A stretch of DNA of 34,198 nt from Sphaeroforma arctica JP610 (lineage: Eukaryota), in the NCBI RefSeq assembly GCF_001186125.1, contig NW_014040265.1, forward strand, positions 36,164-70,361, written 5' to 3'. Below the pieces are notes generated by a model that saw only the letters and a program-made list of their open reading frames with translations, was not told where the DNA came from and made no database searches. This document shows positions 1 through 29,971 of the stretch, in pieces. How positions within the stretch are numbered: position 1 is the stretch's first letter; each line of letters opens with the position of its first letter. Made by a program: the position numbers and the translations under genes.

Positions 1-612
1 ATCGCCTTTCAGTCGTTCACAAAAAGGATTGGTTTTAGGGGTTTAAATACTCGTATATACTTTCAAAAAAACAAACGTGAAAAAGAAGGTGATTTTGGGA
101 AACGTAAAAAATGTAGGTGATTTGTTTTTGGGAATTTTTATGGTAAATCTGCCACACACAAAAACAGTGTATTTGGGACATCAAGTGGACAGCCCGAGCG
201 GCCTCTGTCGTGATTTTGGTATACTACATACTTTGCTGTGTATACTGGCCACGTCTGCGGCCAATAAAAAAAACGCTGGGGACATATGTGGCGTCCTAGC
301 CCGCCCATTGGCCTGTTGGAACAACAACCGGGTGTGTGCTGAGTAGATGTTTGAACCCTACGTGAGCTGCTGACTTAAAGAAGGATTTTTTTTAAAAGTA
401 TAAATCACTAGCCAGCCTTTAGTTTTAGTAGTTAATCCTTTGCTGTAGTAAACTGTGCACTGAGTTTACTACTGATAAAAATATTCGAGGTAGATGTTTT
501 CTACCTTGATTACCAGTGTACGAAGGACCCTGTTATAGTGTCTAGGACCTACTATAGTGGGTCGTGAATACATGACCAGCCTAGGACCCCCATGTGTGAA
601 AGTCCTGAGTTA

Positions 613-1424
613 TGTTATAAACGCACTCTTAAGCAGTACGTAAATTATAAACGTACTCTTAATAGTACGAGGAACTTAAGTTTCCTAAATGTACTCTTAA
701 TAGTACGAGGAACTTAGTCTCCTAAATGTACTCTGAATAGTACGAGGACTTTAGTTTCCTAAAATGGTTTTTAATGGTTTTATTAATTAATACCTTTTCC
801 CTTTTACATATCAGATATTTGGACGACGCCACTAAAAGGCCTCAGTAAAATACCAAACATAAAGAGTTGGTCTAGTTCTATTAATAGAACTTCATTTACT
901 TTCCAATTTTATTTATATCTGAATACTTCGGTAGCGAGATGGCTCAACCGAATATAGGTTTCTAGGGACTATTAATGTTACCTAGTTGATCCTCCGATCA
1001 GCCAACCAGATGTGCCAGTCTGATGAAGGCTAAGTCGGTAATTCTTGATAGTGGCAAGTTACTTGTTAAGACACTAACTAAAGACATCAAGAGTATTTTT
1101 GTTTCTATTTTTTTCTTCTAAAGATAGGATTTTATGAGTCTCTCGGATTCGCCCCAGTGAAACATACCATAGTTTCTAATAGAGCGACAACGAAACACTA
1201 AATAAAATCCCTTCGGCGGAAACAGTACCGAGAGGATTATATATAGGCAATGTCTTAGCCTCACAATCCCTCAGAGTATTGCTGTTTTCACGAGGCATAC
1301 CTAACTTTACTAAAAGTCTCATTTCGTTTATTTACTTTGATATTTATACGATACTTAGAATTGCCCTACGCGTTTATTTATTCTAAGGCATTAGTATCGC
1401 CTTTATTAGACCGAATCTTACACA
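613..1424 (+). repeat. 5' LTR
   Basis: Starts TGTTATAA and ends TTACACA. Collinear and highly similar to 7256-8035, with one extra copy of an internal ~38-bp repeat. Confidence 0.9.
649..760 (+). repeat. LTR-internal tandem repeat, ~38 bp x3 (x2 in the 3' LTR at 7292-7367)
   Basis: Unit AAATGTACTCTTAATAGTACGAGGAACTTAAGTTTCCT read directly from the sequence. Confidence 0.9.
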
Positions 1425-1546
1425 TTTAAAAGTTATCAAAGGTATTAGTAACTTATACTTAAGCGTAAAGGTAGATTAACAACCACAAAATGTTTCTTAT
1501 CCAAGCTAGTCCTTAAGAGACAAGCTAGTAGTCCTAAGTTAAGATT

Positions 1547-3288
1547 ATGACCAAGAAAGACAATACTCCTTCTAAGAAGCGTAAAGCTGAAAAGAAGAAG
1601 ATGGAGAGAGAAGCCACAAACGCTGCCGCAGCTACTGCGGCCGCATAAGCAACCGCTGCCGCTGCTGATGCGTTTAACCGCACTGTAGCCGAAGTACTTG
1701 CCTCTGACAATTCATATAAGGATGTAGCCACTTCGCTTAAGGAGACTACTCCCACTGATACAGCCCGAGGGCCAACTATTGCCTCAACTTCAAAGCTTGT
1801 ATTTACGAAGCCAAGAAGTGAGACAAGGGACACGACTCAAGACGCCCCAACCCATTCTTCTGACGAAACTCAGAAAGGAAAGTCCCCAATTATGAGGGCG
1901 TCCCCAATTATAGGGGACAAGGACAAATCTCAGAAGGAACCTATTTTAGAACCAGAAGAGGAGGCAAGCTCAAGTGGCAAACCCAAATTTACGTCCGAAA
2001 CTACTAAGCCAACGCGCATAAGTAAGTTAATTACTGAAAACGCCGATCTTAAGAATCAGTTAGCTACCATTATGAAAGACTTGACTGTCGAACATGTAGA
2101 TCAATTATATAGATCAGGAAAACATACACAGTACTTACGCGAGCATGTTTCCCCGGGCATTACTGAAGCCCTACAGAAGTGGATAGAACGTCGACAGGCA
2201 ATTACGCCCGAAGAACGTAAAGACTCAAGCGCTACGCCTGAGGCATATGAACCAGATGTGCTCAGCGTATCTATACCGTACGAGGCACTACCGTCAGAAG
2301 TTCAGGCTAATTACTCGCCTGTTCTGACACCCGGCCGTGAGTCACCCGTCCTCGAGGGTATTATAGACCCAGAGGCAGGTAGAAATACTCCAGCACTTTT
2401 ACCCAATTGGGATGACAATCGTCGGAAACCAGTTAAGACTGGGTATGTTATCCAGACGCACGAGAGACGAATGATATCGCTCCCCAGCAATGGATCTCTG
2501 CTTTAATGCAGACATTTGACCCTACAGGTACAAGTTATTTGATCCTGCAGCGACACCAGCATGAGCTGGACACTTGTCGTGACTGGCTAGCTGTGTGTTG
2601 GTTGGTTACATCCTTGTTAAGTAAGGACATGCGTAGCCCTGGACTGAGTTCAATTTTAACTGAACCAGCTCAGAACACGCCCATTCAGAGTTATATTCTG
2701 AAGCTAGATGCTGACCTGAAACGTCCAGATATACCAAAGGACAAGGCACAGCGATGGTACGAGTTCCTGGTTATGCACGAGTTCTGTAAGAACATAGGGA
2801 ACAACGACCGTGAGAGCCTGTACACCGAGTTGTGACGTAAACACGCGACTGAGGCCCGAGACAAGGGATATGAAACAAATCTATCCCGACTTACGTGGGA
2901 ACAGCTTTATGATACTGTATCCACCCTTTTCCCCGCACATCGAGTAACATCAAAGGGAAAAGCGGCTGTTAAGAAGCCGCGAGAACACACCGATTACGGG
3001 TACGTATCCAGGCAGACCTCAAACGAGAGACCCCAACATACACGTGCTCGCGACTCCACTCTATCCACGCGACCCAATAAACGGGCACGCGCGGGAGCGA
3101 AGAACATGAAACCTCCATTTAAGGAGATCAAGAAATGTTCCGACGCACAATTAACCCCTAACGGTTATTGGAATGGCATACATGCATCCACTTGTACACA
3201 CTTTCTTACTAAGTGTGACAAGTGTGAGAAGACCAATGGCTATCACACTAAGTCTTGTGACAGAAAGCCCAACATTAAGTTGGAGTGA
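1547..3288 (+). pseudogene. gag: gag-like ORF (disrupted) ending in a Cys/His zinc-knuckle-like motif
   Basis: ATG at 1547 is in frame with ORF 1892-2506 (stop ~1646). A frameshift near 2460 leads into ORFs 2506-2835 and 3106-3288. C-terminal HASTC...CDKCEKTNGYHTKSC. Located between the 5' LTR and the protease. Confidence 0.7.
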
Positions 3289-3633
3289 AGGTACTACCAG
3301 GTACAATCATTACACAGACAATACAACGACTCTTTAGATGAGCGTGTAATAATCCCTGTATATTGCAATGGAAATAAAATCCTTGCGTTGATTGATCCTG
3401 GTTCAGAAATATCATGTATATCCGATCGCTTTGCATTAATGAAAGATATCGAAGGGAGAACACAAACAACTCACCTCATGTTAGCTGATGATAAAACTGC
3501 TAAAAGTGATACCATGGCCACAGATGTTAAAATATCCCTGGCCAATGATAGGAATATCACTACCCAAGCTGTGATAGTTAAGATGTCACAGAAGTACGAC
3601 ATTATAGTTGGAATGAGTGATTTACTCACTTAG
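3289..3633 (+). pseudogene. pol: retroviral-type aspartic protease domain
   Basis: KILALIDPGSEISCI (D-[S/T]-G motif reads DPG here) and YDIIVGMSDLL flap-end motif. In frame with the end of gag. Confidence 0.8.
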
Positions 3634-3767
3634 GTATAACCGTAACTGATCTACCAACTAACATAGATCCATTAAAGGGTCAATCAGACGATAACTGTCT
3701 GAATCCATATAAGCCCCCGTCCGACACAGTCAAGGCATTAATACCTGACTTTGCGAGAAAAAAAATC

Positions 3768-5150
3768 ATGGATCTGATTCTAGTTAATAAGAAGAGAAAG
3801 ATCACAGTTTGGGCCAAATTCCGCTTTAACGACGGATATGTCAGCCTTGACTTAACCAAGGTGGACTTTACACAGTTAAAGTGTCCCTCAAGGATCTATG
3901 TATCCTGGAGACACGAGGCTGTGGTAAAAGAACAAGTTGAGAAATGGCTAGCAGATGGTGTGATAGAAATTAACTATCAACAAACGCCAGTTAACTTGGG
4001 ACTGCTAGCCGTAGACCGACATAACTCTGACGGATCGTTTAAGAAAGTCAGAGTATGTTTAGATATGAGTCCAATAAACAAATTATTACCGACTCATAGC
4101 TTTCACTTACCTCGTATTAACGAGCTACTGCGAAGGATGGAAGGTGCTGCAGTATTTACAACTATAGACCTTACACAAGGATACCATCAAATGCAGGTAT
4201 ACGAACCACACCGTAAATAATTTAGCTTTACGTGGAAAGGTAAACAATACCGGTTCAGAGGTGCACATTTCGGGTTACACTCTTTACCAGCATTCTTCTA
4301 ACAAGTAGTGGAAGAATTTTTTGCAGACATGCCTAACGTGCAAGTCTATATAGATGACATAGTCATCTTTTCTAAGACTAAGGGCGAACACGCCGCATTA
4401 GTCAGACGAGTCCTTAAGAGACTCAACGAGCAACACTTCAAGATTAACGAGAAGAAATGCCACTTTGCAATGAGCGAAATACAGCTCTTAGGCTACCATA
4501 TATCTGGGGAAGGTATTAAAATCGACCCCGGTAAGGTAGCACACCTGTTAGATTGGCGAACACCAACTACAGGAAGAGATGTTAACAGCATATGTGGGTT
4601 TGTAAACTTCTTTTCAGATGGAGTACCACACTTAGCTGACTACCTTAAACCTTTTGGACACTTAAGATGTCATAAAGGCAAACTAGGAGACTTGTGGACT
4701 AAAGAGTGTGATGACGCATTTAAAGCGCTCAAACACGCAGTCCAACAAGCCCCAGTTGTACAAGGACCAGTCGATGGCGTGCCGTTTGAAATAGCAACGG
4801 ACGCCTCCGACTTAGCCTTAGGAGGAGTATTATATCAGGTTATAGATGACAAACCTAGATATATACAATTCTTTAGTCGAGCAATGAATGCTTCACAGTT
4901 GAATTATCCAACTGTTAAACAATAGCTATTAGCCATAGTGGCAGCTCTAACACACTTCCGAGATTACTTATACGGAACAGCATTTACGCTGATGTGTCAT
5001 CAGAGATCTCTTCAATATATGAAAGAGATGAAACCCGACTCACAATTACTGAGTCGCTGGCATGATACAATATCAAAGTTTCATTTTGATATAAAACATC
5101 TGCCAGGAATACATAACCATTTACTGGATATGTTATCACGCTTCGTACCG
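3768..5150 (+). pseudogene. pol: reverse transcriptase and RNase H domains of Gypsy pol (in-frame stops ending at 4220, ~4301, 4925)
   Basis: RT motifs RVCLDMSPINK, LPRINELL, FTTIDLTQGYHQM, YIDDIVIFS and LLGYHIS. RNase H motifs FEIATDASDLALGGVL, FFSRAMN..Q.NY and HLPGIHNHLLDMLSR. All in one frame. Confidence 0.95.
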
Positions 5151-5186
5151 GACTTTAATAAATCCGTACGTGAGTTACTAGCCACT

Positions 5187-5513
5187 GACTGGAAGTGTAA
5201 TCCCAGGTGGTTTGAACTGGCTCAAAAGATATTTGGGCCACATACCATAGATATGTTTGCTGCACATCATAATGCACAACTATCGAATTACAGGACTTTA
5301 AATCATCCTTTGGGAGACGCCTTTGAAATAGACCTCTCCAAACTTAATGCGTGGGCTAATCCACCTTGGCAGTTAATTACCCAGCTATTAAATTATGTTC
5401 ATATACATAAAGCTACCATCACGTTGTGTTGCCCATTACGGAGTAAGGATCCATGGCTCAATAAATTGATATGCATATACAATGCGAGCCAATATATTTC
5501 GATAGGAAAGTAG
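5187..5513 (+). pseudogene. Dam-like DNA N6-adenine methyltransferase domain (DIRS-type MT) within pol
   Basis: DWKCNPRWFELAQKIFGPHTIDMFAAHHNAQL...DAF...WANPPWQLITQLL...ATITLCCP...PW. SAM-binding-like DMFA at 5250-5261 and catalytic NPPW at 5358-5369. No stop between RNase H and this domain. Confidence 0.88.
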
Positions 5514-5666
5514 ATACTTTCCTATATCAGGGTACCCGAGCCGTCCAGAAGACGCCCCGGAGACATACTATTATGTCGTATAGGTCCCATTGGAACAACC
5601 AAATGGGCCCCTTCTGAGACCTTCCTTAACAAGATCAAAGAATCAGAGATTCCACTCTCTACCCAA

Positions 5667-7163
5667 TTGAACGTTAAGCAGTTCAAAGGCAACACAGCAT
5701 TTAACGTCTGTGCACAAGAAATACAATCTACTAATGACACTGTTAAGAAGCGTCAGTCTCTAGCTAGGACTCTGTTTAATAACATAAAGTCCAAGCCCGC
5801 GGTCTTTCAAACCTTATTTTTAAAGGGATTAATGAAAGACAATCCTGAAGCGTACACACATATAATGCGACTATTTAATAAGTCAGGTGTATCTAACGCA
5901 CATGAGCGCATTTATGACGCTCATGTAAAAGCAGGACAGGAGTCTGAAAACACTACAGACTTAGAGACCACGCAAGTGGATTCTCAACACCCTACCTTTA
6001 TTCTGGAGGAGCAGAATGATAAAAACATTATTGCTTTGCTGACGCAAAATTATAAGCTGAAGCACCAGAACGTAGTAGACGCACTTAAAGATGCTAAGCG
6101 ACATGGGATCGCGCACCCTAAACTGGCAACTTTAGTTGACAGAGTATATCAGTCATGTACAGACTGTGATCTCAATCAGATCAAGCGCTATGGGTTCGCA
6201 CCGCTTAAGAGTGTGACTGAAGATGTTGCATGGCGCAGGGTCATCATTGATCTGATTGACCTGCCCACGTCCGAGCACACAGGCGACCGTTACATATGCC
6301 ACTTCTTTGATGTGGCGTCACGGTTTAACTTGCTCTATCCATTAAAGGATAAGAATACGCAGACCGTGGCAGAATTATGTTGCCAAGTCTTTGCTGACCA
6401 CGGGTGGCCAGGTATTATGTGCACTGATAACGGTAGTGAGTTCTGCGATGACGTAATGGAATCGCTAGTACTCGTATCAGGCATATGCCATAAGAGAGGT
6501 GTGCCATAAAAGCCGCAAACGCAAGGCGCGAATGAAGCGCGCCATAGACGACTTAAGTTCTTCTTGCGTACTGCATTAACGGATGATGCAGATGATTGGC
6601 CGTACCACCTTAAGTGGGTACAAACACAGATGAACGAGTGTGCTGATCCGGTTACAGGAACAAAACCCGCTCACTATTTTCGTGGCAGATATAGTGAGCT
6701 ACAAATACCCTTTAACAAGGACGAACCTGAACACCATGAGTTACCATGGTTAGAGAAGGTCCAACGTATTTATAACGTTGCATATCCTTGCTTGCGAGAA
6801 ATACGCAATATAGCCTTATTTAAAAAGCAAAAGCATTGGAACACTACCAAAAAGATAGCAGAGTATCAGGTTGGTGACAGAGTTAACATCCGTCAACGTA
6901 ATTCCGATGCTACTGTATTGACATCTAAATGGATAGGTCCATATATAATCTCTGTAGCAGACACTAAAAGTGGAACGTACGAGGTAAATAACCCCGATGG
7001 TTCTAGTGCGCTTAATATAGGCACAAGTCGTATTCCGACTACCGATATTATACTCGCAAGAAGACATGACTCTAATGCCCCTCTTGATCGTTCTGAATTT
7101 GAAGCCAAAAAAAATGGAGAACGGATATGGGAGGTTATACATACTATCGTACACGCTTTTTGA
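5667..7163 (+). pseudogene. pol: DDE integrase with GPY/F domain and possible chromodomain remnant
   Basis: Zn-binding-like H...CTDC; WRRVIIDLIDLP; D-ASRF; TDNGSEF; PQTQGANE after the stop at 6507-6509; KWIGPYII; terminal ERIWEV. Same frame as RT/RH/MT. Confidence 0.92.
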
Positions 7164-7255
7164 CCCATAATCAGCTTGAGTGAGCAACTTGCTTCCCATG
7201 AGTTTCAAAGCTGGGTGAGGGCTGTGAATAAGCCGGGCCTCCACATTAGACTCTA

Positions 7256-8035
7256 TGTTATAAACGTACTCTTAAGCAGTATGTAAATTATAAACGTACT
7301 TTTAATAGTACGAGGAACTTAAGTTTCCTAAATGTACTCTTAATAGTACGAGGAACTTAAGTTTCCTAAAATGGTTTTTAATGGTTTTAATAATTAATAC
7401 CTTTTCCATTTTACATATCAGATATTTGGACGAGGCCATTAAAAGGCCTAAGTAAAATACCAAACATAAAGAGTTGGCCTAGTTCTATTAATAGAACTTT
7501 ATTTACTTTCCAATTTTATTTATATCTGAATATTTCGGTAGCGAGATGGCTCAACCGAATATAGGTTTCTAGGGACTATTAACGTTACCTAGTTGATCCT
7601 CCGATCAGCCAACCAGATGTGCCAGTCTGATGAAGGCTAAGTCGGTAATTCTTGATAGTGGCAAGTTATTGGTTAAGACAATAACTAAGGGCATCAAGAG
7701 TATTTTTCTTCTTCTTTTCTTCTTCTTCTAAAGATAGGATATTTATGAGTCTCTCGGATTCGCCCCCGTGAAACATACCATAGTTTCTAATAGAGCGACA
7801 ACGAAACACTAAATAAAATCCCTTCGGCGGAAACAGTACTGAGAGGATTATATATAGGCAATGTCTCAGCTTCACAATCCCTCAGAGCATTTCTGTTTTC
7901 ACGAGGCATACCTAACTTTACTAAAAGTCTCATTTCGTTTATTTACTTTGATATTTACACGATACTTAGAATTGCCTACGCGTTTATTTATTCTAAGGCA
8001 TTAGTATCGCTTTTATTAGACCGAATCTTACAACA
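7256..8035 (+). repeat. 3' LTR
   Basis: Starts TGTTATAA and ends TTACAACA (7/8 inverted-terminal match). Direct repeat of 613-1424. Confidence 0.9.
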
Positions 8036-11039: not shown

Positions 11040-11800
11040 AGCAAGAGAGCTATCCTATGACCTGGAAAAATCCCCCTCACAATTCCCATCCTTAAAGTAC
11101 CTAAGCCTCCAGTTGCTGCAGAGTTCAGGCCGATCTCGCTCACACAGATCTTCAGATGGATTTTTGAAATAACAATTTTCCAACCTTTCACACTCACCCA
11201 GCCTTCAAATTTTGTAGATCCCAAGCCGGCTACATACTTAAATAATCTGCCACATGACATGCACTCACACTTCATGACCGTATATCCTACCATATCCGAA
11301 ACCGAGGCTCGTCAAAGCGCAACCATCTTGTTGTTCTGGACTTTAAACATGCTTACGATAGAGTTAATTACAAGCGATTGTTACATCTCCTACGGCTCAG
11401 AGGCGTCCCTATCCTAATCACCGTTATGTGCGCAAATCTTCTGGAGAATCAGAGCGCCAGGGTTTTATACCAAAGCAAGTTATGCGCGACGTTCTCCCGC
11501 CGTAGAGGTCTTCCACTAGGATCACCAATTATGCTCCTACTTTTCAATGTCTACATTGACCCACTGGCTTGGCAACTTGAGAAGTTCTGTGAAGATGCTT
11601 CTCTTCTCCTTGCCGACGATATATTTCTGTATCACCATGACACAAGCACACTCTAAATTCTGCTAAATTGCTGTCAAAGTTGGGCAGATGACTGAATTAA
11701 AGTGTGGCTTTATTCCCGGATATCAAGATGGACGTCCCTCTGATTTTGCTATTAGACCTATCCCGATAGTAGTCACATACAAATATAAAGAAATTCCATG
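11040..11800 (+). mobile_element. degenerate non-LTR retrotransposon (LINE) reverse transcriptase
   Basis: Across frames: P.TWK, PILK...EFRPISLTQIF (11121-), QAG, LLFLDFKHAYDRV, RGLPLGSPIMLLLFNVYIDPL, LLADDI, YKY. These are the canonical non-LTR RT motifs in order, with stops and frameshifts. Confidence 0.85.
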
Positions 11801-12387
11801 CCACACTCATGGAATTCTACGGAAGCTCTAAATAGCAAACTCAGCAAAGCAGCACAAATTGGCTGCTCTTTTGGATTCCACGCTGGCCCCCAACTACACC
11901 CATGTACCAAACCACTGCTATATAAGACATTTATGTAATCCAAGATCGTTTTGAGATTGAGTATCATCGAACTGCCACCCCGTGGAGCTCAGACTTCCAC
12001 AATCTAACCAGTTTGACATCTATACTTACCATAATGATGTGATCCTAAAGTGCGCAGCTACCATTTTTAACTGCAAAAATCTTCCACAAGAAATTCCATT
12101 CCACACTCATGGAATTCTACGGAAGCTCTAACTAGCAAACTCAGCAAAGCAGCACAAATTGCCTGCTCTTTTGGATTCCACGCTGGCCCCCAACTACACC
12201 CATGTACCAAACCACTGCTATATAAGACATTCATGTAATCCAAGATCGTTTTGAGATTGAGTATCATCGAACTGCCACCCCGTGGAGCTCAGACTTCCAC
12301 AATCTAACCAGTTTGACATCTATATTTATCATAATGATGTGATCCTAAAGTGCGCAGCTACCATTTTTAACTGCAAAAATCTTCCAC
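11788..12387. repeat. 300-bp direct tandem duplication (11788-12087 / 12088-12387)
   Basis: Exact 300-nt period with about six substitutions seen by eye. Confidence 0.95.
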
Positions 12388-15358
12388 CAGCCAACAAACC
12401 CTCTCTAAGTGTAAAACCCTACTTCGTTTTGTTTTAGGGGGTTTTTTTTGCTAAACCCTAAAAAACTATCGCGATATCTCAGTGGGACGACTTGGGGCCT
12501 TTTGTACCGCTCTTCGGCCCCAGACCATCCCCTCAAATCGGTATTTCTCCACCCAAATATTAGGCTACATATGGCATCGTACGCTCGGCTATCGTGCCTC
12601 GCCTTTCATGGCCCTACCAACAGAACGTATATCCAAATGGCTGTCAAAGCCAGCAAATGTTGAGAACAAAATCGCAACAGATTCCAGGCCAATACTGTCA
12701 CCTAACCGTACAGCACGAGCACACAAATGCTACTGCACGATAGGGATACTAAGAACTATGTGGATAACGTCTTCACGTCGCACCAAGCCCAAGTTGTTCT
12801 TGTCAAACTACTATGGTGCTTTAACACTTTCTGGTTCATGATGTCTACCAATGTGACCGGAACTCTTGGTGGTCTTCGGTGGCCGCAACACACTGATATC
12901 ACCGCCACGACATCACACTCCAATCGCTTAAAAGACTTCCTTCAAATACTGCTGGGTCCCACCCATCATGGTACAGACACCATAATTTCGTGGTTAGCTG
13001 ACAAAGACAAGTGGATACATTTGGCAGTAAACCACTCTCACCTTAAATACTTCTTCATACCGCGAAACCAACCCCTACCCAGCCCTATAGCAGCAAAAAA
13101 AACATATTACATTACCCATATTCATACGTCCTATACTAGAATACCTTCATATCACAAAGGTATTTCACTCTCAGCCTCATACCCATCCCACAATTATCCC
13201 AACAAACTCCCACACAATGCACCGACTTGGCTCTGCCTGGATCCCTAATGGTAGAATCCTGGCTATGGCGAGACTCTGTCAAAGACTCCTATTTATTGCT
13301 ATTGGACTTGCTGTAAAACCCCCGCAACTACAACATCCTAATGCTATACTCCTAGCAATCCTCCATGACCGCATCCTTCCACTGCCTTTCCAGGGTGGAC
13401 CGGCTACTTCTAGATCGCACACACTGTTCTTTGTTGCTATGGTCCCTAGCTGCCTCCTTCTTAGTTTTACTACAAAGTGGCACACACTCTACCCTATATT
13501 AATTGAAATAATCAACGCTATTGATCCTTTGTCCCATCGCATCGCTACTAAGCCAGTAGTGTGATTAGGCAAACGTCCATAACACTTAGTATGGAACAAG
13601 TTGCCGCTCCATGCCTCCAAATCTTTAGCTATCTCAACTAACTTTAATGTGTATTGTATGCTACCATGAATTGCTGCTCGAGATGTCCAAGAACGTAGTA
13701 GATTTTCAATTCACTCTCTATTGCAATAAATATGAACAAAAAAAATCAATGTCTTGTCAGTATATGATAAGGCGGTAAAAGCAAAGTTACATTTGCCAAA
13801 ACCTCATATATTTATGGCAAGTCAGTCCTAAGATATATGTACAGGTCGGTCATATGGGACCGTCTTGCACGTCAAGAGCACTTACTGTCAAGTCATGACA
13901 CTTGACACCAAGGGGCTGCAGTATTTTCTTATAGTCATCAACCTGGGTTACCGGGAAATCCATTGATCATTTCGGTTTCCCTCACTAGCAAATGAGATAA
14001 ATTATTCTAAATAACGAAATTACGTTAGGGATATTAATTTTCCTCGTGCCAACTGTTTACCCACAGTCACACACTAGAGGACTGTTAGCTTGATTTAAGC
14101 AAGACGTCCTTGAGGTTAAAAGCATTCGCTAAAATGGCGAAAAACGAGATATTCTTGAGATTTTAAAGCCAATAGGGTTTAAAGTTCATTTTCTTTTTAG
14201 ACAAATTTTAGCTTCAAATCAAATTAACTGAACATTAAGGCTCTATAGCTATATGCAGCTATAGTGCATAGAAGTAGGAAAATGGCTTAATAAAGAGTGG
14301 AACAATGACCCAAGAGGTCAGTTGTTTACAGTCCAGTTTAAACATACTTGTAAAAATTTATTAATTCTTTTACAGAGATACGATGGATTAAAATTAAAAT
14401 GACGATATTAGGATCGTTTTCAATTAACTATCCAATTAATAGTGATTCATTATACGTGCTAGGCGTCGTCACTTTTCTATGCCTTATTAATCAATAAATA
14501 TATTACTCTCAAACAAACAGTAAACCACGCTGATTCTTATTTTGTTCTGAATTATACTGTATTTGACTATAACAACTGTTACTATGGAATTCACTTCACG
14601 AAGGAGCACTACAACACTATTTGTGTGGATCCTTATAAACTTGAAGCTATGATTGATTTGTGCTAGGTTTACTGTTTCTTTCCAATTGATTGATACGTCT
14701 GTTATTTTCTCGTGCTTCTGATATTTTAGGTACAGATTGTTTTATTTCTACGAAGTTTCATCTCTGCGGCAATAGTCCGCGCTCAGACACTTGATCCACT
14801 TTCGGCCGACGTATTGTTTCATCGATGTTCATCATGCATTTGGCATTCTTATTCTGTCGTAAAGTCTTGTCTATGGTGTATGGTTTTATCGTGTCATTGC
14901 GGGATATTTTGGATCTGATTGACGTTTTAATAAAGTCACCCACTCCGATAATTTGATACGATATGTAGCCTGCTGATTCAAATTTCCGTTGCATATAATT
15001 TAATCCTGCACGCGAGTGATCGCTTGCTTTCAATCTAACAGAGAATCTTGGATCCAATTTTGAAATGTTTCATCTTTTCTGTTGCCGTTTCTTTTGTCTA
15101 TAGTTTTGCTCTTCTTATCCGACAGTGTCAAAACTGAAATATAACTATGTACTGATTTTTGGCAAGTAGAGTACCTGTGTAAACGCATCCCATTGCAATC
15201 CGTATCGCAATGAAGGTCTATTGTTTAAATACAGCGTTTACCTTATGTTCAGTTACTGTTAGTACTGTTCAGTAATATGAAGTATAATACCTGGAAGTTA
15301 TGCCACCTATCAAGAGTATGCTTGTATATCCTAGATCTCACATATTCTCTTACACCAT

Positions 15359-15944: not shown

Positions 15945-18900
15945 TTATACAGGCTGTACTGCATTAAGTTTCGCAAATTCGCCACCCATTGCTACCAACT
16001 CGTCAAATTTGCCTTGCTCGACGATAACACCATCTGGAGTGGGGATAAGGGAATGAACGAACGTGAGATGTATTGTCAAACATAATTGGGAAATGTACAC
16101 TGTGGGTGTAATAGCACCTTTCCACGTGCTTTTTATATTATCTGGCAAAGCATAACACTGTTCAACATGCAAGGCATGATGCGTTTTGAGTACAGCTGTG
16201 AATCAGCATGAGATCGGGCAGTATTCACGCGAAATCAGAAACCAGGGGCAATTAAAATCAGAAACACACCACAAACATACAGACACGCGCTTCACCATCA
16301 CACAGATCTGAAAACAAAAAAATCAAACGAATGGCACGAGTATCATATATTCATCCAAGTTGGAAGCTGGCCAAGGTGTATTCGGACACACAAGCATAAA
16401 ATGTTTTGCACACCGTGACTAGCCTGCAACTGTCCCGAAGCCTTTTTTAAACTCCCAACCTCCCCCCAAAAAATCATAGCTGCGTCATTTTTACGCACAC
16501 ACGGGATAACACCTTCATACACCCAACTCTTATATCAAACGATGACATACTCTTGATTACAGCTATCTTATCGGCGTTCTTAATAGTGGTCAAGCGGTGA
16601 GCAACAATGATTGTGGTTCGTCTCTGAGCTGCCAACAACTTGTCCAGCGCATCCTGTACAACGCGTTCACTCTCCGCGTCCAGGGCCGAAGTCGCCTCAT
16701 CAAGCAGTAGAATACTAGACAAAAGTACACAGTTATGAGATTCAACAACTCTTGGCAGATATGTTTCTGTGTGAAAAGTGTGTTAAGAAACAAAAAAAAT
16801 ACGGACTAGAAATACAGTATATGCATTTTACGAGAGAAACCTGCTGATAAACCAACACTGTCAATTGAACCTGTACTCGTCGTGCTTAAACTTTGAAGAT
16901 TAAGAACTTGCCGGCCCTGTGCTGATAGTATCGGGATAGCAGGCGCGAGAACATACCGTGGGTTCTGAATGATGGCTCTAGCTATGGCCACACGCTGCTT
17001 CTGCCCACCCGACAACTGTGCACCCCTGTCACCCACTAACGTCTCGTACCCATCGGGGAAGTCCATGATGAAGTCTGAAGTGTATAGTGTAGTATGATTA
17101 ATTGGTCCATGATAAAGTCTGAAGTGTATAGTATAGTATGATTAATTGGGGTGTTGTGTTTGTATCGGCGCGTGGGTGATTCACTTAGAACGAGACTGGC
17201 ATGTTTTGCTTTAGGGTTTGGGGTTTGTTCTAATGAGAGCGTGTGCAGTGCCTTTGTGGACAAAGCCTGCACTGGTCAAAGATTGGCCTGTATTTGGCCT
17301 GCAACAGTATCTGAGTGATTCCAAATCATTTTACTATTATTAAGATGCGGTGTCAAGAAGCGATACAGAAAAAGGCCGAATCATATCAAGACCACTCACA
17401 ATGTGACAACAAACGACACAAACCGGGTACTTACTGTGTGCGTTCGCGGACTTGGCAGCATTTACAACCTCTTCAGAGGTGGCGCCTGGCTTGCCAGTAG
17501 CAATGTTAGACATGATTGTGCCACCAAACAGCACCGGTTCTTGGCCCACCAGCCCCACTTGAGAACGCAGCCAACTGGGTGAGGGACATGACAGGTGGGG
17601 TGAACAACCAATCAGCAGAGAATAATGTCAAGGAAAAGCTCGTATTTATCGCATACGCCGTGATACACAATGTGCATCTCTCATACACAGCATGAGAGAT
17701 GCACATTGTGAATGTTAATATCCGGTGAGTTCCAAGGTTTGAGCCTTAATACTATCGGCGGTGGTAGGGTATCTCCCCATCCAATCAGTGGGGAGTATGT
17801 TTGCCCACAAGTGATTGGCGGGAGGTGCAGTCGACAGAAGGCTATCGATAGTAAGTAAATATCTGGCTATTTCAGTGGGTGTTCGACAATACCCCGAACC
17901 CAAACCCAAGCCAAACCGACTATACTATTATCGCTGACAAAGTGGCTTGCTATACATACTTCACGTTGAGTTCTGTTAAATCCACTCCATCCAGGTACAC
18001 CTGTCCGGCGTTGGGGTCGTAGAAGCGCTCCACCAGAGAGATGATCGTCGATTTACCACTGCCTGCAAGTCGAAAGGGTAGAGACAAGGATGAATATATA
18101 CGTCTATAACTTCAGATAATCGAGCCTATGTGGCTTGGATGCCGAGTCGTAGGATGTCAAAGGATACCATGAGGAGAAAAGATTGACATCCGAACCAGTG
18201 CGCTACGGTACGGTGCATGATAGAAGACAAATAGTCTCTGTGCAAATTTAGTAGTATCTATCTACAGACGGCATCAAACGCACACACAGACGCACAGGCA
18301 CATTCACACACCCCACTTGACACACAGCACCTCTCTCTCACTCTCTCTCTAACACACACACACACATCCACGCTCACCTGATTCACCGACGAGTGCCACA
18401 GTCTGGCCCTCACCAATGTCCAAGTTGTAGCCCTTCAGAATACGTTGCAGTGGTCGTGAGGGGTATTTGAAGTGGACGTTCTTCACCTCAATGTGTCCCT
18501 GAGTCGCTTTCGGCTGTGCGCCTTCGAATGACGAGATGTCAATGTCGGGCACACGGTCGACGACCTGAGCATCGGAGATGTGAGTGAGTGTGTGGGTGTG
18601 TGAGTGTGTGTGGGTGCGTGTCTCTGTTGTGTGTGTGGGTGTGTGTATCTGTTGTGCGAGTGTAAGAGTGAGCTAGTGTGTGTATGTGTTTATCTGTAAA
18701 GGGCCCAGTGATAATAATAGTTTATAGATACATCAATAGATACTTATAATGTGTAATGTGCAGAATAGCATTTCTACCTAACAATCCAAAACTCAGCAGA
18801 AAGCGAAAAGGGGAAAATCTATCTATCAATCCAAAACTCAGAAAAGGGGAAAATCTATCTATCAATCCAAAACTCTGCAGAAAAGGGGAAAATCTATCTA

Positions 18901-21900
18901 TCAATCCAAAACTCTCAGAAAAGGGAAAAATCTATCTATCAATCCAAAACTCTCAGAAAAGGGGAAATCTATCTATCAATTCAAAAGGTTTTTAGTTTTA
19001 GCTGACCCACAGGGTATCTGTCCACACACACCACATCCGATCAAATCGCTGAGAGAGATTGCACATCGATCTTAGCGGCCATGCTTCTAAACCACTTGCC
19101 CTATAATGTACACACACACACACACACACTGACCTGTACACGTGTACACAACGCAATATCATGAATACTCTCCAGCTACTCACCATGAAGATCTTGCGCG
19201 CGGCATCGTTTGCGGCTGTGCTGTCGGTCATAAACGACGATGTCTGTGCCAAACCCATGGCAGCGAACATTATAGCCATCAGAGACTTTAGGCACTCGTC
19301 GAACGTGATCTCACCTTTACCTACTAAGGTGCCTCCGTACCTACACATTGAGTGTGTTCATTTTTATTGCTAGGCGTCAATGGTGTGGAATACTGGCAGG
19401 GAGGCTCGTACACTGTGACGGTTGTTCAATTAGTAATATGTAATTTTTAACTATGTTTGTTCAATTAGTTAATACTATGTAATTTTTAAGTATGTTTGTT
19501 CAATTAGTTAATACTATGTAATTTTTAACTATGTTTGCTCAATTAGTTAATACTATGTAACTTTTAACTATGTTTGTTCAATTAGTTAATACTATGTAAT
19601 GTTCAACTATGTTTGTTTAATTAGTTAATATTATGTGCCTCTCAGCAGCTTGTGACACTTCAAACGTCTGATTCCATTATTATTTATATATGTATAACAA
19701 CGTGCCATACATACTGTGTATATACGATATATAACGTAACATATCTAACCTAAAACCATACCAGAATACGAGCGCATAGCCACCGAACGAGATGAACTGG
19801 GTCATGCCCACAGAGAACCCACCAATCATGCCCTTCTTCACCGTTTCTTTGGTGTTGGTTTGCAGAGCCGTCTGCCAGCGGTGGAATAACGTTGGTGGAA
19901 TAACGTTGGTGTAAGTAACGTTGGCGAACTACAGTAGTGATAGGCGGTAGGTTGTAGGGAATGCAGATAGAGCTCACTACATTTGTATCTCGTAGACTGC
20001 CTGCTCCTCGCAGCAGGTAATACAGTACTGCTAAGGTCGTTCTGTATACCTACATCATCCGCTTATAAGTGTGCTAAGGTGCCTGGCCATAGAGTGTAGG
20101 TACGTGCGTGCTGCTGAGATTGTAATAAATCAGTCGAACCGACTGATAATAAGAGAGCGGCTATGCAGCCCATTTTTTCTTTCCAAACACTAAAGATGTT
20201 GTCTCGCTCAACTCGAATGAAATTTAAAAAACTAAAGTATAAACACACCGCATATATAAATATATATATATATGAGGTATATACATATATATATGTATAT
20301 ATACAGATAGACTTATATGAATATATGTGATAACATAATTTTGACGACGACGTTCAAGCTTGCCAGAACGGACTCTCCATCCCGATCTAAATATAGATAC
20401 CTGGTAATTGGCGGCAATGGGCCTTTGCAAACCAAACGCCTTCACAGTCCTGATGTTACCCACAGCCTCAGTGGCGAGTTTGCCTGACGCAGCCACCGAG
20501 TCATTGGCGTCTTTTGCACCCGCTTGGATGAATTTGATCTGAATGTTCCGATAATAAGACACGAATAAATTAGGACCAATCATGATTTAGAGACGGACAC
20601 CAGCCGCATAATTCTGTTCCGTTATATTGAGTACAAAATGTGTTGTATCGGGATTTAACTCGGTGGGAACTACTACAGTGTGTGTGTGAGTAAGAGAACG
20701 AAACCAGTACTACATAGGCATGAGAGTGCATGGGGTGAGACCAAGGAAGGTCTGCTAATGCCAAAGCTAGACTGTAAACAGTGAATATAAAGATACTAAT
20801 ACAAATAGAAAGATACTATAATACAAAGGTAGTAGACAGGTACTATAATACAAGTATAGTAGACTGTTAATATAATACAAGTATAGTAGACAGGTACTAT
20901 AATACAAGTATAGTAGACAGTCACTATAATACAAGTATAGTAGACAGTCACTATAATACAAGTATAGTAGACAGTTACTATAATACAAGTATAGTAGTAA
21001 TTACTATAATACAAGTATAGTAGAAAATTACTATAATACAAGCATAGAAGACAGTCACTATAATACAAGTATAGTTGACAGTTACTATAATACAAACACT
21101 TCGACACTTAGCAAGAGCGGGAACACAGCCAGCAGTACGGCACCACCAGGGTGACCACCGAACTACCCAGCACAGAGAGCCGATACGACCCAGGACTTAC
21201 CTATTACGTCAAGCGTCAACTACACCCCCGAGTACAATACACCACACAAATATCAGACATATCACCTATCTGAAACGGACAAGAACCCTGGTACTAACAC
21301 CGTACATCGCTCCAGTACACATACGCACACACAGCTTCTATACACACCACCACCTCACATCCATCCTCACCCACTCACCTGCAGGATACTGACACCCCCC
21401 CATATCCCCACACACTCACCTGCAGGATACTGACACCCCCCCATATCCCCACACACTCACCTGCAGGATACTGACACCCCCCCACATCCTCACCCACCCA
21501 CCTGCAAGGTACTGACACCCACCCACATCCTCACCCACCCACCTGCAAGGTACTGACACCCCCCCACATCCTCACCCACCCACCTGCAAGGTACTGACAC
21601 CCCGCCCATCCTCACACAGCCACCTGCAAGGTGCTGACACCCACCCACATGCTCACCCACCCACCTGCAAGGTACTGACACCCCCCCACACACCCACCTG
21701 CAAGGTACTGACACCCCCCCACACACCCACCTGCAAGGTACTGACACCCCCCACATCCTCACCCACTCACCTGCAAGGTACTGACACCCCGCCCATCCTC
21801 ACACAGCCACCTGCAGGGTACTTACAACCCCTCACATCCCCACACAGCCACCTACAGGGTACTAACACCCCCCCACACACCCACCTGCAAAGGTGCTGAC

Positions 21901-24900
21901 ACCCACCCACATGCTCACCCACCCACCTGCAAGGTACTGACACCCCCCCACATCCCCACACACCCACCTGCAAGGTACTGACACCGATCAACAGCGGGAA
22001 CAGGGCCAACAGCACCAGCGTCACCTTCCAACTACCCAACACAAAGGCAATGACCATAGCCGTCACGAGTGTAGACATATTCTGCACAATACGCCCCTGG
22101 TTTTGTCCGCTCACGTCCTTGACCAGTGTGGCGTCGGTGGCCAAACGGGCTGTTAGAGAACCCGTGTTGTTGCTCTCATCGTCGAAAAAGGCGATATCCT
22201 GTGTTTGTTTGTTTGTGTGTGTGTGGAGAGAGGGAAAAGTTAGTTTATGTGATGATTTGAATGTAGAGATATGAATGTAAGGTCAAGGCGATGCGATCAG
22301 AGAGTCGAACAAAGAATGGAACGATGCACGTGCGACGCTTGAAGTATATAAATAGGTAATGCCTTTTGATGTTGTTTCCGTTGTCGAAGCGTATCCGGTA
22401 TCCTCTTCAAAGTTGAACGAGCATATATATATATATATATATATATACATACATATATACATACATACATATACATACACACCCACCCACCCACCCACAC
22501 ACACATATATATATATATAACCCGACATCGCTGCGTGTTGGTATCAGTGGATAAAGGAAGCGGCCCGAGAAGCGGTATATGACAATGTGGGATATAGGAT
22601 AGACCACATGCAGGGACAAGTAAAGGACGAGTATCGTTTGATAATACGACAATATCCAATCAGTTAAGTCTCATCGCACGAACTCTCACACACACGTACA
22701 AGTGCCGAACCTCAAACACGCACCCCAGCTACCTCGAGGAATTGGCACACATTGAACGAATCAGCAACAAAAAATTTATCACAACCGACGATCCTATTTT
22801 CGAAATCGAATTGAAGCAGTACACACCGCAACAAAGCACACACTCGAGTGGTTGGATACACCTGGACGAATCAGACACGAGTATTTTAACCCACCTGGAC
22901 GAATCAGACACGAGTATTTTAACCCACCTGACGAATCAGACACGAGTATTTTAACCCATCTGACGAATTAGAAACGAATATTTTAACCCACCTGACGAAT
23001 CAGATTGGAGAACGTCATGACCCGCAGGCGCGTGACGAGCTTCTCACCGGCATACGAAAAGATGTACGTCTGGAAGAACATCAGCACACCCGCGACTATA
23101 GCCAGAATGACAAAGTCTAACGCGGCCGCACTCATCTGGTCGTAGAGCGTCTCCTTAGGGGCAGTACCCAGTACGTTGATGATGTTGGTTAGCATGACGC
23201 TCATGACTGGGAAGACGGCTCCATTCAGCTGCAGGGTGGTATGGGTAGTACGGGTCATTCAGGGTTTTAGGGTTTAGGGTTGGGTGTACATGAGAAAAAG
23301 GATGCGACGATAAGGGAACACCCCAAATTTAAAAGAGACAAGTGATTCAAGAGAGTGTATAGAGGTGTGGGATGGCGGGACTAAAAGTAGGAGGGTATCT
23401 GGTAGAGGGACGTGGATCGACACATTGCAACACTTCGAACCCACTGTGCGAGTTTTAGTATCTATGCAACCCGTCAGAGAAGACTTTCGCTCAGGAGATA
23501 GATATATACATGCAATCAACACCTCGTGTACCTATATATGACCTCGATATACACGACCACATACTCATGTAGGTGAACAGACGTATAAGTATAGATAGGA
23601 TATGCGCCCTTGATCAGTGTGCTTGTTTAAGTACGCCAAGAAAAAACAATATTTGGATTCTTAAATACTACCCCAGAATTTTGACGAAAAAACGCATGCA
23701 ACTTTATACTTCATCTATATATATACATATACATATATATAAAATGGTTGTTTACGAGTTTCATTTCTAGAATACAACAATCTGGAACCGAAATTCATAT
23801 CAGGTCAAAATGAATAAGAAACACTCGAAAGATTGCTGAATTCATTTACCTCCATACTTGTGTATAAATACATAGATACACACACACGCACACACACACA
23901 TACATATATACGTACATACATAAAAACATAAATATATATATATATACAAATAACAATATGATATACATACATAGTACACAGTAGATACAAAAGTACAAGA
24001 CACTATCCAGTCGAGCGCACATACCGCAGCCGCAAACATGCCCAGTATCATGAACATGCGCACTGGTTTATTGAGGCTCCAAATACGGCGAGTCAACTCC
24101 CAGCCCTGTGCGCCTTCGTCGACGGGTTGAGCCTCGGGATCCTCCTCTGTTAACCCCACATTAGAGTCCTCTTTAATGCCCATCGAACAGCCATCACAAT
24201 TAAGTTAGCGGGTACGTGCAATAAATAACCTCAAGAGTCTGTACTGACACTTTAATGACCATTGAAGCTTTAATTAAGTTAGCGTGTATGCACGATGGTC
24301 CCCCCACGGCCGTTTGTATGGAATATAGACATGCTTGCGGATGCGTGTGTGCGTATGTGGGTTGTATATACACTTGTGCATGTAAGGATCGTCATATAGG
24401 TCAGTCAGCAGCGGTTGGATTGTGAGTTTGGCTGATACACATGCGTGCGTACGCAATCGACTTAAACGCATCTGTACGTCTATCTTTAGTGACCATCTTT
24501 ATGGTAGACAGACGGATGATAGTAGAGCAGGGGACCAGCCCGTAGGCACATGTGTGATAGTGTGGGAAGAGTGGTAGTCACTATATCGCCGGTGTAAATA
24601 GAGGGATATGGTAGGTGACTTTTTGATAGATGTATGTCTGTTTTGTTTGGTCGTTGCGTACACCCATAGGGTATGAAATAGTATACGAGCGTACTCATGT
24701 TGACTTACATATACGTTAACACTCGAGCAAGCAACAAGCAGAGTGCATGAAAGCTCGTGTCCCCACACGAAGATCACAGAAAAGAATACACTGTTTGTAC
24801 AGTACACCAATCTCGTGGTGGTTGTCAAAATCTAGCGAGAACACAAAAACACACATGTATATATGCATATGCATATATATATATATATATATGTATGTAT

Positions 24901-29894: not shown

Positions 29895-29931
<37 letters not shown>

Positions 29932-29940
29932 TACGTATGC

Positions 29941-29971
<31 letters not shown>

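What the first reader, a model, noticed from the sequence alone, without database searches (positions are those of the whole stretch)
4938..5666. Gypsy LTR retrotransposon with a DIRS-type N6-adenine DNA methyltransferase fused in-frame between RNase H and a DDE integrase
Seen: directly after the RNase H end (DMLSR), with no stop, the pol frame reads DWKCNPRWF...FGPHTIDMFAAHHNAQL...DAF...WANPPWQLI..LL...ATITLCCP...PW. After one stop (5511-5513) the same frame continues into an rve-type integrase, and the element has ordinary direct TG...CA LTRs. Established: DW.L.P..F...GP.T.D.FA...N....DAF...NPP(W/F) is the Dam-like MT domain found C-terminal to RT/RH in DIRS retrotransposons, which use a tyrosine recombinase and lack a DDE integrase. 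NPPW fits the [DNS]PP[YFW] amino-methyltransferase catalytic motif. Standard Ty3/Gypsy pol has no such domain. Inference: this is a chimeric lineage (PR-RT-RH-MT-IN) that captured an adenine methylase, or an intermediate between Gypsy and DIRS architectures. It might mark its own cDNA or LTRs with 6mA to mimic active host chromatin or avoid silencing. The MT motifs are intact although this copy is dead. I cannot confirm that the architecture is undescribed.
Basis: partly seen in the sequence, partly recalled or inferred. Interest (0 to 1): 0.93.

Follow-up and report, generated by a model that had tools for sequence, protein, structure and literature searches.

The report
Dead methylase-carrying gypsy retrotransposon, hidden chromodomain
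This is a broken copy of a gypsy-type jumping gene of the protist Sphaeroforma that carries an adenine-methyltransferase domain between RNase H and integrase, a design that a 2026 preprint already described in this genus, although intact relatives also end in a likely chromodomain that the preprint says is absent.

Summary
The element (595-8035, TG...CA LTRs 96% alike) encodes protease, RT, RNase H, a Dam-like domain with DMFA and NPPW, and a DDE integrase. Two intact relatives carry these domains in one reading frame, and the methylase is as conserved as RT. A neighbouring host exon is 99% identical to Sphaeroforma arctica. bioRxiv 10.64898/2026.05.21.726589 (May 2026) names an 'Ichthyosporean DAM-LTR lineage' in S. 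arctica, Abeoforma and Pirum; our RT and Dam trees group this copy with Abeoforma proteins. This scan also found DAM-LTRs before, in other genomes.

Corrections: the stop at 5511-5513 is out of frame, because the methylase C-half lies in another frame between two frameshifts, so the domain is broken in this copy. The LTRs start at 595 and 7223.

Addition: the preprint says the lineage lacks chromodomains, but 9 of 12 clade proteins have a chromo-like tail, and the tail of a close relative folds like a chromodomain (Z 8.0). The substrate is unshown. The top fold match of a Dam-domain homolog is the RNA cap methylase PCIF1.

The parts
595..1424 (+). 5' LTR (830 bp, TG...CA; lacks about 14 bases near its start relative to the 3' LTR and has one extra unit of a short tandem repeat)
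   Evidence: start inferred from the 3' LTR boundary
591..594 (+). Possible 4-bp target-site duplication, left copy CATG; the right copy GATG at 8036-8039 matches 3 of 4
   Evidence: suggestive only
1547..3288 (+). Broken gag-like region (stops, one frame change near 2440-2500; Cys/His-rich end). No Pfam match at the curated cut-off; gag is inferred from position
3352..3618 (+). Aspartic protease (frame 1; frameshift near 3630 separates it from the pol frame)
   Evidence: Pfam Asp_protease_2 E 1.6e-6
3879..4508 (+). Reverse transcriptase, YIDD; premature stops at 4218-4220 and 4299-4301
4776..5153 (+). Gypsy-type RNase H; premature stop at 4923-4925
   Evidence: Pfam RT_RNaseH_2 E 8e-21, RT_RNaseH E 1.2e-10 and 1.7e-9
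5181..5600 (+). Dam-like (PF05869) N6-adenine methyltransferase domain with DMFA and NPPW; C-half in frame 2 between frameshifts near 5470-5476 and 5570-5575
5601..6020 (+). Poorly conserved linker (25-30% identity among close relatives)
6021..7094 (+). Integrase: HHCC region (first His is Tyr in this copy), D-D-E core present, stop at 6507-6509, C-terminal region
   Evidence: Pfam rve E 1.7e-6
7095..7159 (+). Remnant (first half) of a divergent chromodomain, frameshifted near 7105-7112 and cut off after 7159
   Evidence: frame 2 aligns to the P0002 tail, 0 of 1000 shuffles (P0001: 4 of 1000); other contigs differ here and run on
7213..7222 (+). G-rich tract before the 3' LTR, probable polypurine tract
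   Evidence: read from the sequence; function inferred
7223..8035 (+). 3' LTR (813 bp, TG...CA)

Best explanation
This is a dead copy of an ichthyosporean DAM-LTR, a Ty3/Gypsy retrotransposon whose pol reads protease-RT-RNase H-Dam-like methyltransferase-integrase and, in intact relatives, ends in a likely chromodomain; the methyltransferase likely puts N6-methyladenine on the element's own new cDNA so that fresh insertions would be kept active by the host. Shown here: the domain order, one open frame in intact relatives, conservation of the methylase, the broken state of this copy, the host genus. Inferred: pol is packaged and cut in the particle. The methylase stays tied to RNase H, binds SAM (DxFA) and an adenine (NPPW), and acts on the RNA-DNA hybrid or nascent DNA. 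After integration the host AMT1 would maintain 6mA at ApT, a mark of open chromatin in these protists (model of the preprint). The chromo-fold tail would help choose or hold the insertion site. I put the identity at about 0.95 and the cDNA-methylation step at about 0.5.
For: Pfam order in the window. P0001 (1376 aa) and P0002 (1400 aa) carry RT, RNase H, Dam and rve in one stop-free protein; the window is 56% identical to P0001 over 1201 columns. P0002 against P0001: RT 61%, RNase H 77%, Dam 68% and 66%, linker 30%, tail 20%. NPP[W/F] is present in 14 of 15 clade rows. RT-RNase H tree: the window lies in an 11-row all-DAM clade with Abeoforma P0003 (97-99 SH-aLRT), inside Gypsy-type rows. Dam tree: the same group, 15 rows (98 under LG, 94 under the mixture model). 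Contigs of 4 of 4 runs cover the Dam stretch at depths in the range of its neighbours, and in run X16 single contigs bridge 4809-5232 and 5341-5699. Host exon 99% to S. arctica SARC_04906. The preprint reports more 6mA-marked insertions and more expression for DAM-LTRs than for other LTRs in S. arctica and A. whisleri.
Against: No activity has been shown: the preprint's E. coli expression raised no 6mA. The Pfam Dam score is below the curated cut-off. P0002, an intact close relative, has CPPW in place of NPPW. The best fold match of a Dam-domain homolog is PCIF1 (Z 10.3, rmsd 3.0, 135 aligned), tied with rRNA methylases; DNA methylases score lower (M.TaqI 8.3, T4 Dam 7.7). Iyer et al. judged DIRS1 methylase domains likely inactive (PMC4738411, passages). 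The 6mA excess in the preprint is a correlation measured at ApT and could come from host AMT1 alone. No ApT or GATC bias is seen in the element.
Confidence: 0.55

Rival explanations
1. Same element, but the domain methylates RNA (the cap-adjacent adenosine or internal adenines of the element's own transcript), like its structural relative PCIF1, to stabilise, translate or package the genomic RNA.
For: Top structural match of P0025 is the zebrafish cap-specific adenosine methyltransferase (6irx, Z 10.3), followed by DIMT1, KsgA, Erm and METTL5. A weak PCIF1_WW Pfam match overlaps the Dam region of P0045 (E 0.008). Iyer et al. place DIRS1 methylases in the PCIF1 clade. The DNA assay in E. coli was negative.
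Against: Z values within 1 are tied and a shared fold shows no substrate. Sequence profiles point to phage DNA methylases (PF05869, PHROG 111). P0025 is a homolog of unassigned element type, not this copy. The reported 6mA excess is on DNA.
Confidence: 0.2
2. The domain is a non-catalytic nucleic-acid or SAM-binding module that helps reverse transcription or integration; the 6mA on these elements comes from host AMT1 because they are transcribed.
For: Negative E. coli assay. CPPW in intact P0002, while its Dam domain stays 66-68% identical to P0001. Iyer et al.'s view that DIRS1 versions are likely inactive. The preprint says that the eukaryotic domain lacks part of the bacterial Dam.
Against: NPP[W/F] is kept in 14 of 15 clade rows, and D26, P60 and the F-A of the SAM-site motif are invariant or nearly so in 39 aligned homologs, which fits retained catalysis.
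Confidence: 0.2
3. The methyl mark protects the cytoplasmic cDNA from host nucleases or deaminases rather than acting through chromatin after insertion.
For: Inference only. DIRS elements keep the same domain in hosts that lack AMT1 (preprint), so a function that does not depend on AMT1 must exist there.
Against: DAM-LTRs were found mostly in AMT1-positive species (9 of 13, preprint). Nothing tested here.
Confidence: 0.1
4. A DIRS fragment has inserted by chance into one Gypsy copy, or the join is an assembly artefact.
For: This copy has frameshifts inside the domain and only a 3-of-4 target-site match.
Against: Two stop-free close relatives and Abeoforma proteins share the layout. RT and Dam trees are congruent for the clade. 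Other contigs bridge the RNase H-Dam junction and the Dam C-terminal end.
Confidence: 0.01

Closest known systems
Ichthyosporean DAM-LTR lineage (Fernandez-Moreno et al., bioRxiv 10.64898/2026.05.21.726589, 22 May 2026; whole main text read, figures and supplements not seen)
   Same: Same host genus (S. arctica is named), Ty3/Gypsy RT, Dam PF05869 domain with NPP motif in pol, DDE integrase, LTRs; groups with Abeoforma whisleri proteins in RT and Dam trees.
   Different: The preprint says the lineage 'lacks chromodomains'; here the clade, including Abeoforma P0003 and P0016, has a divergent chromo-like tail below Pfam's cut-off. The preprint's text does not give the domain order for this lineage or its terminal features. 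This copy is dead.
Chlorophyta DAM-chromovirus-like clade and other chromodomain-bearing DAM-LTRs (same preprint)
   Same: RT-RH-Dam-IN-chromo order is seen in P0005, P0011, P0014, P0019, P0024, P0027 and others; most share a 20-row RT-RNase H clade with the window (99).
   Different: Their chromodomains pass Pfam; the hosts of these rows are unnamed, so I could not tie them to the preprint's clades.
DIRS1-type tyrosine-recombinase retrotransposons with an MT domain (PMC4738411 and PMC5890265, passages read)
   Same: Homologous Dam-like domain directly after RT-RNase H.
   Different: Their ORF ends after the methylase and integration is by a tyrosine recombinase (recalled; also stated in the preprint). 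RT similarity to the window is far lower (best score 196, against 345 for Gypsy without Dam and 772 for DAM-LTR).
KnitGypsy-Dnmt3 of Klebsormidium (de Mendoza et al. 2018, PMC5890265, passages read)
   Same: Gypsy pol that has captured a DNA methyltransferase.
   Different: A C5-cytosine DNMT, unrelated to the adenine methylase.
PCIF1/CAPAM cap-specific m6Am methyltransferase (PDB 6irx)
   Same: Best structural match of the Dam-domain model (Z 10.3, rmsd 3.0, 135 aligned, 13% identity).
   Different: A cellular RNA enzyme with WW and helical domains; a shared fold does not show a shared substrate.

Membership tests
Ichthyosporean DAM-LTR lineage | Host is an ichthyosporean | tested here: met
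   Neighbouring ABC-transporter exon 99% identical to S. arctica SARC_04906
Ichthyosporean DAM-LTR lineage | Dam (PF05869) domain with NPP motif inside pol | tested here: met
   E 9.3e-6 (the preprint's screen used 1e-5; below Pfam's curated cut-off), NPPW present
Ichthyosporean DAM-LTR lineage | Dam domain groups with those of Abeoforma, Pirum and Sphaeroforma elements | tested here: met
   15-row clade with Abeoforma P0003, P0006, P0016 (98 and 94 SH-aLRT); the preprint's own sequences and Pirum were not available
Ichthyosporean DAM-LTR lineage | Described as lacking a chromodomain | tested here: not met
   Chromo-like tail in 9 of 12 clade proteins, Abeoforma included, chromo fold for the P0002 tail. 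Pfam alone misses it, so this looks like a detection limit of the description and not a different family
Ichthyosporean DAM-LTR lineage | Excess 6mA and expression on insertions | not testable with these tools
   No methylation data; reported in the preprint
Ty3/Gypsy (Metaviridae) | Order PR-RT-RH-IN with DDE integrase | tested here: met
Ty3/Gypsy (Metaviridae) | RT groups with Gypsy-type RTs | tested here: met
   35 Gypsy-type against 24 DIRS-like rows split at 99-100 SH-aLRT; labels come from domain layout, with no named reference elements; where the DIRS branch attaches is unresolved (AU p 0.41, 0.21)
Ty3/Gypsy (Metaviridae) | Direct TG...CA LTRs and polypurine tract | tested here: met
   595-1424 and 7223-8035, 96.1% identical; G-rich tract at 7213-7222
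Ty3/Gypsy (Metaviridae) | Target-site duplication of 4-6 bp | tested here: inconclusive
   CATG against GATG, 3 of 4
Ty3/Gypsy (Metaviridae) | Primer-binding site after the 5' LTR | tested here: inconclusive
   No TGG after the LTR; an exact-complement scan against the LTR as first drawn (613-1422) found only a 7-base match; host tRNAs not available
DIRS1-type retrotransposon | Tyrosine recombinase in place of DDE integrase; no aspartic protease | tested here: not met
   rve integrase and protease present; no recombinase among the 10 element ORF pieces scanned
DIRS1-type retrotransposon | MT domain after RNase H | tested here: met
Chromovirus (Chromoviridae clade of Ty3/Gypsy) | Chromodomain at the integrase C-terminus | tested here: met
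   In intact relatives; only a frameshifted first half in this copy
Chromovirus (Chromoviridae clade of Ty3/Gypsy) | RT falls in the chromovirus clade of named references | not tested
Active N6-adenine DNA methyltransferase | Class I SAM-methyltransferase fold with [DNS]PP[YFW] | tested here: met
   Model of homolog P0025, pLDDT 89, matches amino-methyltransferases; NPPW in the window
Active N6-adenine DNA methyltransferase | Methyl transfer to DNA adenine | not testable with these tools
   The preprint's E. coli assay was negative

The most novel reading that the evidence does not exclude
Ichthyosporean DAM-LTRs are cryptic chromoviruses. They keep a divergent chromodomain that has lost part of its aromatic cage, and they share one ancient capture of the methylase with the chromodomain-bearing DAM-LTRs of other eukaryotes instead of arising independently. 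Their PCIF1-like domain marks the element's own RNA or RNA-DNA hybrid inside the particle. The chromodomain part alone I put at about 0.85; the single capture (AU p 0.44, not rejected) and the RNA substrate are only not excluded.
Probability: 0.15. Interest if true: 0.6.

Novelty: already known. Interest (0 to 1): 0.25.

Why it matters
Retrotransposons that carry their own adenine methylase may exploit 6mA, a mark of active chromatin in many protists, to escape silencing. That idea and this lineage were put forward in May 2026, with S. arctica as one of the test species, so this copy is a further dead example. The lineage appears to end in a divergent chromodomain that a Pfam threshold misses, which bears on how many independent captures are counted and on insertion targeting. 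The PCIF1-like fold keeps an RNA substrate open and could explain the negative DNA assay. P0001 (NPPW) and P0002 (CPPW) are a natural pair for testing catalysis.

Tried and rejected
No whole genome is held, so I could not collect copies, count them, compute dN/dS or search host tRNAs; per-domain protein identity was used as a stand-in. The run search listed no RNA holder (kinds marked 'RNA?' are guesses), so nothing is said on expression. Depths are not copy numbers. Sequence search of the PDB with the Dam alignment and with the two-sequence tail alignment gave no match at E 0.001. Pfam gave no Chromo match for P0001 or P0002, whole or tail. A profile of 10 canonical retrotransposon chromodomains did not detect P0001, P0002 (2 of 50 shuffles as high), truncated P0007 or the window's tail; the direct profile-profile match of those two tails to canonical chromodomains was only 4% probable. 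The clade-tail profile found nothing in the three frames of the window's element. Foldseek had no chromodomain match at E 0.001 or better (best 6.5e-3). The Atlas hit (Chromo, 0.90, 164 shared features) is a lead only. Self-priming: only a 7-base exact complement, not accepted. No ApT, CpG or GATC bias in the element. My first LTR boundaries were replaced. The careful RT tree did not finish; all trees are 'quick'. Rows dropped before trees: 12 ids were excluded (near-duplicates of one cluster and apparent multi-element proteins) along with short hits, leaving 59 of 83 RT rows and 57 of 110 Dam rows; Dam-only fragments were left out. The rows were chosen by similarity to the window, so the sample is biased towards its clade. 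A paper search for Ty3 + chromovirus + methyltransferase domain + integrase + Dam found nothing. The scan's own index had no look-alike by sequence.

Full report
1. Observation. The + strand from 3621 to 7163 reads as one pol-like frame with five internal stops. Pfam on 10 element ORF pieces gives protease (E 1.6e-6), RT (1.1e-12), RNase H (8e-21), Dam PF05869 (9.3e-6 for 5187-5510, below the curated cut-off) and rve (1.7e-6) in that order. PHROG 111 'DNA methyltransferase' also matches (3.8e-4). The domain is not a chance match.

2. Corrections. The stop at 5511-5513 is out of frame. From about 5470 to 5575 the methylase is read in frame 2, which aligns to the intact relatives with scores 131 and 114, reached by 0 of 1000 shuffles; frame 3 takes over again at CRIGP. 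Contigs of all 4 runs laid carry one more base behind 5476 and behind 3630. The true premature stops are at 4218, 4299, 4923 and 6507, and the first His of the HHCC motif is Tyr here. The copy is dead and its methylase is broken, although DMFA and NPPW remain. I first drew the LTRs at 613-1422 and 7256-8032. Laying contigs on 7040-7300 showed loose ends with unlike, long flanks at 7227-7234, as expected where the same repeat starts after many different sequences. With TG at 7223 and 595 and CA at 8035 and 1424 the LTRs are 813 and 830 bp, 762 of 793 aligned bases identical. A G-rich tract precedes 7223, and the flanks CATG/GATG match 3 of 4. No TGG primer-binding site follows the 5' LTR, and a scan for self-priming found only 7 complementary bases; priming is unexplained.

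3. A family, not an accident. Two stop-free relatives were found: P0001 (1376 aa, 71% over the Dam part) and P0002 (1400 aa). Both have RT, RNase H, Dam and rve in one protein. The window is 56% identical to P0001 over 1201 columns. Between P0002 and P0001 the Dam halves are 68% and 66% identical, RT 61%, RNase H 77%, integrase core 57%, linker 30%, tail 20%, so the methylase is held as tightly as RT. A wider search returned 3610 proteins at E 0.001, of which 150 were listed. I scanned 30 of them, picked for length or Dam match: 27 have a Dam match at E 0.01, and many are long RT-RH-Dam-IN proteins, some with Pfam chromodomains. Named ones are Abeoforma whisleri P0003, P0006 and P0016 (20 proteins looked up). 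In public runs the whole element, Dam included, is covered in 4 of 4 runs, far deeper than the flanks (no copy number can be read from this). In X16 one contig spans 4809-5232 and another 5341-5699.

4. Host. An exon of the neighbouring ABC-transporter gene (21965-22201, minus strand) is 99% identical to Sphaeroforma arctica SARC_04906 and 82% to a EukProt protein CFRG4039T1 (that this is Creolimax is recalled). The window is S. arctica or a very close congener.

5. Trees. With 59 of 83 RT hits, Gypsy-type (35) and DIRS-like (24) rows split at 99-100 SH-aLRT. The window sits with P0001/P0002, inside an 11-row all-Dam clade with Abeoforma P0003 (97-99) and a 20-row clade of 18 DAM-LTR and 2 Dam-less rows (98-99). 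Local RT scores to the window: best DAM-LTR 772, best Dam-less Gypsy 345, best DIRS-like 196. Against this, AU tests do not reject moving the long DIRS branch next to the window's trio (p 0.41; p 0.21), so the attachment point of DIRS is unresolved. In the Dam tree (57 of 110 hits) the same group forms 15 rows (98 under LG; 94 under the mixture model), 24 of 26 DIRS-like rows form their own group, and holding all 31 DAM-LTR rows together is not rejected (p 0.44). Labels rest on domain layout, recombinases were not checked, trees are 'quick', and sampling is biased towards the query.

6. Literature. A search for Gypsy + LTR retrotransposon + adenine methyltransferase + DIRS gave two papers. bioRxiv 10.64898/2026.05.21.726589 (whole main text read; figures and supplements not seen) claims the first identification of Dam domains in non-DIRS LTR elements. 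[quoted passage not shown] 'DAM-LTR' occurs in this paper only. PMC5890265 (passages) covers Gypsy-Dnmt3. PMC4738411 (passages) puts DIRS1 methylases in the PCIF1 clade and thinks them likely inactive. Earlier agents of this scan reached the same preprint for other genomes (seen after I had read it); their notes are not evidence.

7. The chromodomain. A profile built from 10 Pfam-confirmed chromodomains of DAM-LTR proteins scored the last 260 residues of 12 clade proteins. Nine beat all 50 of their shuffles (Abeoforma P0003 best, 27.8 bits; P0016 only its cut-off first half); P0001, P0002 and the truncated P0007 did not. A profile of 8 of those tails matches canonical chromodomains at 98.4% (hhalign) and the P0002/P0001 tails at 95.7%, and picks the same tail in both full proteins above 100 of 100 shuffles. 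The direct match of the P0002/P0001 tails to canonical chromodomains is only 4%. The AlphaFold2 model of the P0002 tail (pLDDT 82.5, three strands and a helix) returns chromodomains or chromo-shadow domains at the top of both searches: Foldseek best E 6.5e-3, TM about 0.7; VIA Z 8.0, rmsd 2.0, 56 aligned to the Oxpecker chromodomain. Z 8 alone is middling; the uniformity of the list and the position after the integrase carry the case. Pfam Chromo gives E 0.0011 (P0155), 0.082 (P0058) or nothing, all short of the preprint's 1e-5 threshold. In the window a frame-2 remnant at 7095-7159 aligns to the P0002 tail (0 of 1000 shuffles). Other contigs in 3 of 4 runs run on from 7159 with letters that I read by eye as IDGTI, like P0002's MDGTV, so this copy has lost the second half. 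The tails lack the loop aromatic of HP1-type cages and P0001/P0002 have Phe for the central Trp (alignments; the cage residues are recalled), so methyl-lysine reading is doubtful.

8. Mechanism. Shown: anatomy, conservation, motifs (NPP[W/F] in 14 of 15 clade rows; P0002 has CPPW), and a class I amino-methyltransferase fold for homolog P0025 (pLDDT 89). Its best match is PCIF1 (Z 10.3), then rRNA methylases, with M.TaqI at 8.3 and T4 Dam at 7.7. Inferred: the domain travels in the particle beside RNase H and methylates adenines of the nascent cDNA or hybrid, and host AMT1 then maintains 6mA so that the new copy stays transcribed (about 0.5). Rivals: RNA substrate (0.2), non-catalytic module (0.2), cDNA protection (0.1), nested DIRS fragment (0.01).

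9. Verdict. Real, correctly recognised from raw sequence, and already described in the same genus. Interest 0.25, for the chromodomain correction and the open question of substrate.

Noticed in passing
window 11061-11656: Broken non-LTR (LINE-like) reverse transcriptase fragment, Pfam RVT_1 E 1.1e-10 for 11258-11653; the LINE label is from motif likeness, recalled.
   Followed up: partly
window 11788-12387: Tandem duplication of 300 bases, 98% identical, just after the LINE-like fragment.
   Followed up: no
window 12395-12465 and 1-60: Short AAACCCT / TTTTAGGGG telomere-like motifs in both orientations; one X17 loose end also reads as AAACCCT repeats.
   Followed up: no
window about 16400-33400, minus strand: Intron-rich ABCB1-like transporter gene; one exon is 99% identical to S. 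arctica SARC_04906. Its introns hold AT/AC microsatellites and minisatellites of 27, 39, 41 and 61 bases.
   Followed up: partly
window 1425-1450: No TGG-type primer-binding site after the 5' LTR; how the family primes reverse transcription is unexplained.
   Followed up: partly
window 640-760 and 7283-7370: The LTR holds a 36-37 base tandem repeat, three units in the 5' LTR and two in the 3' LTR.
   Followed up: no
P0002: Intact close relative with CPPW in place of NPPW while the rest of the Dam domain is conserved.
   Followed up: partly
window 3286-3288: TGA between the gag-like region and the protease in the same frame; whether it is a natural read-through stop or a mutation was not settled.
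   Followed up: no
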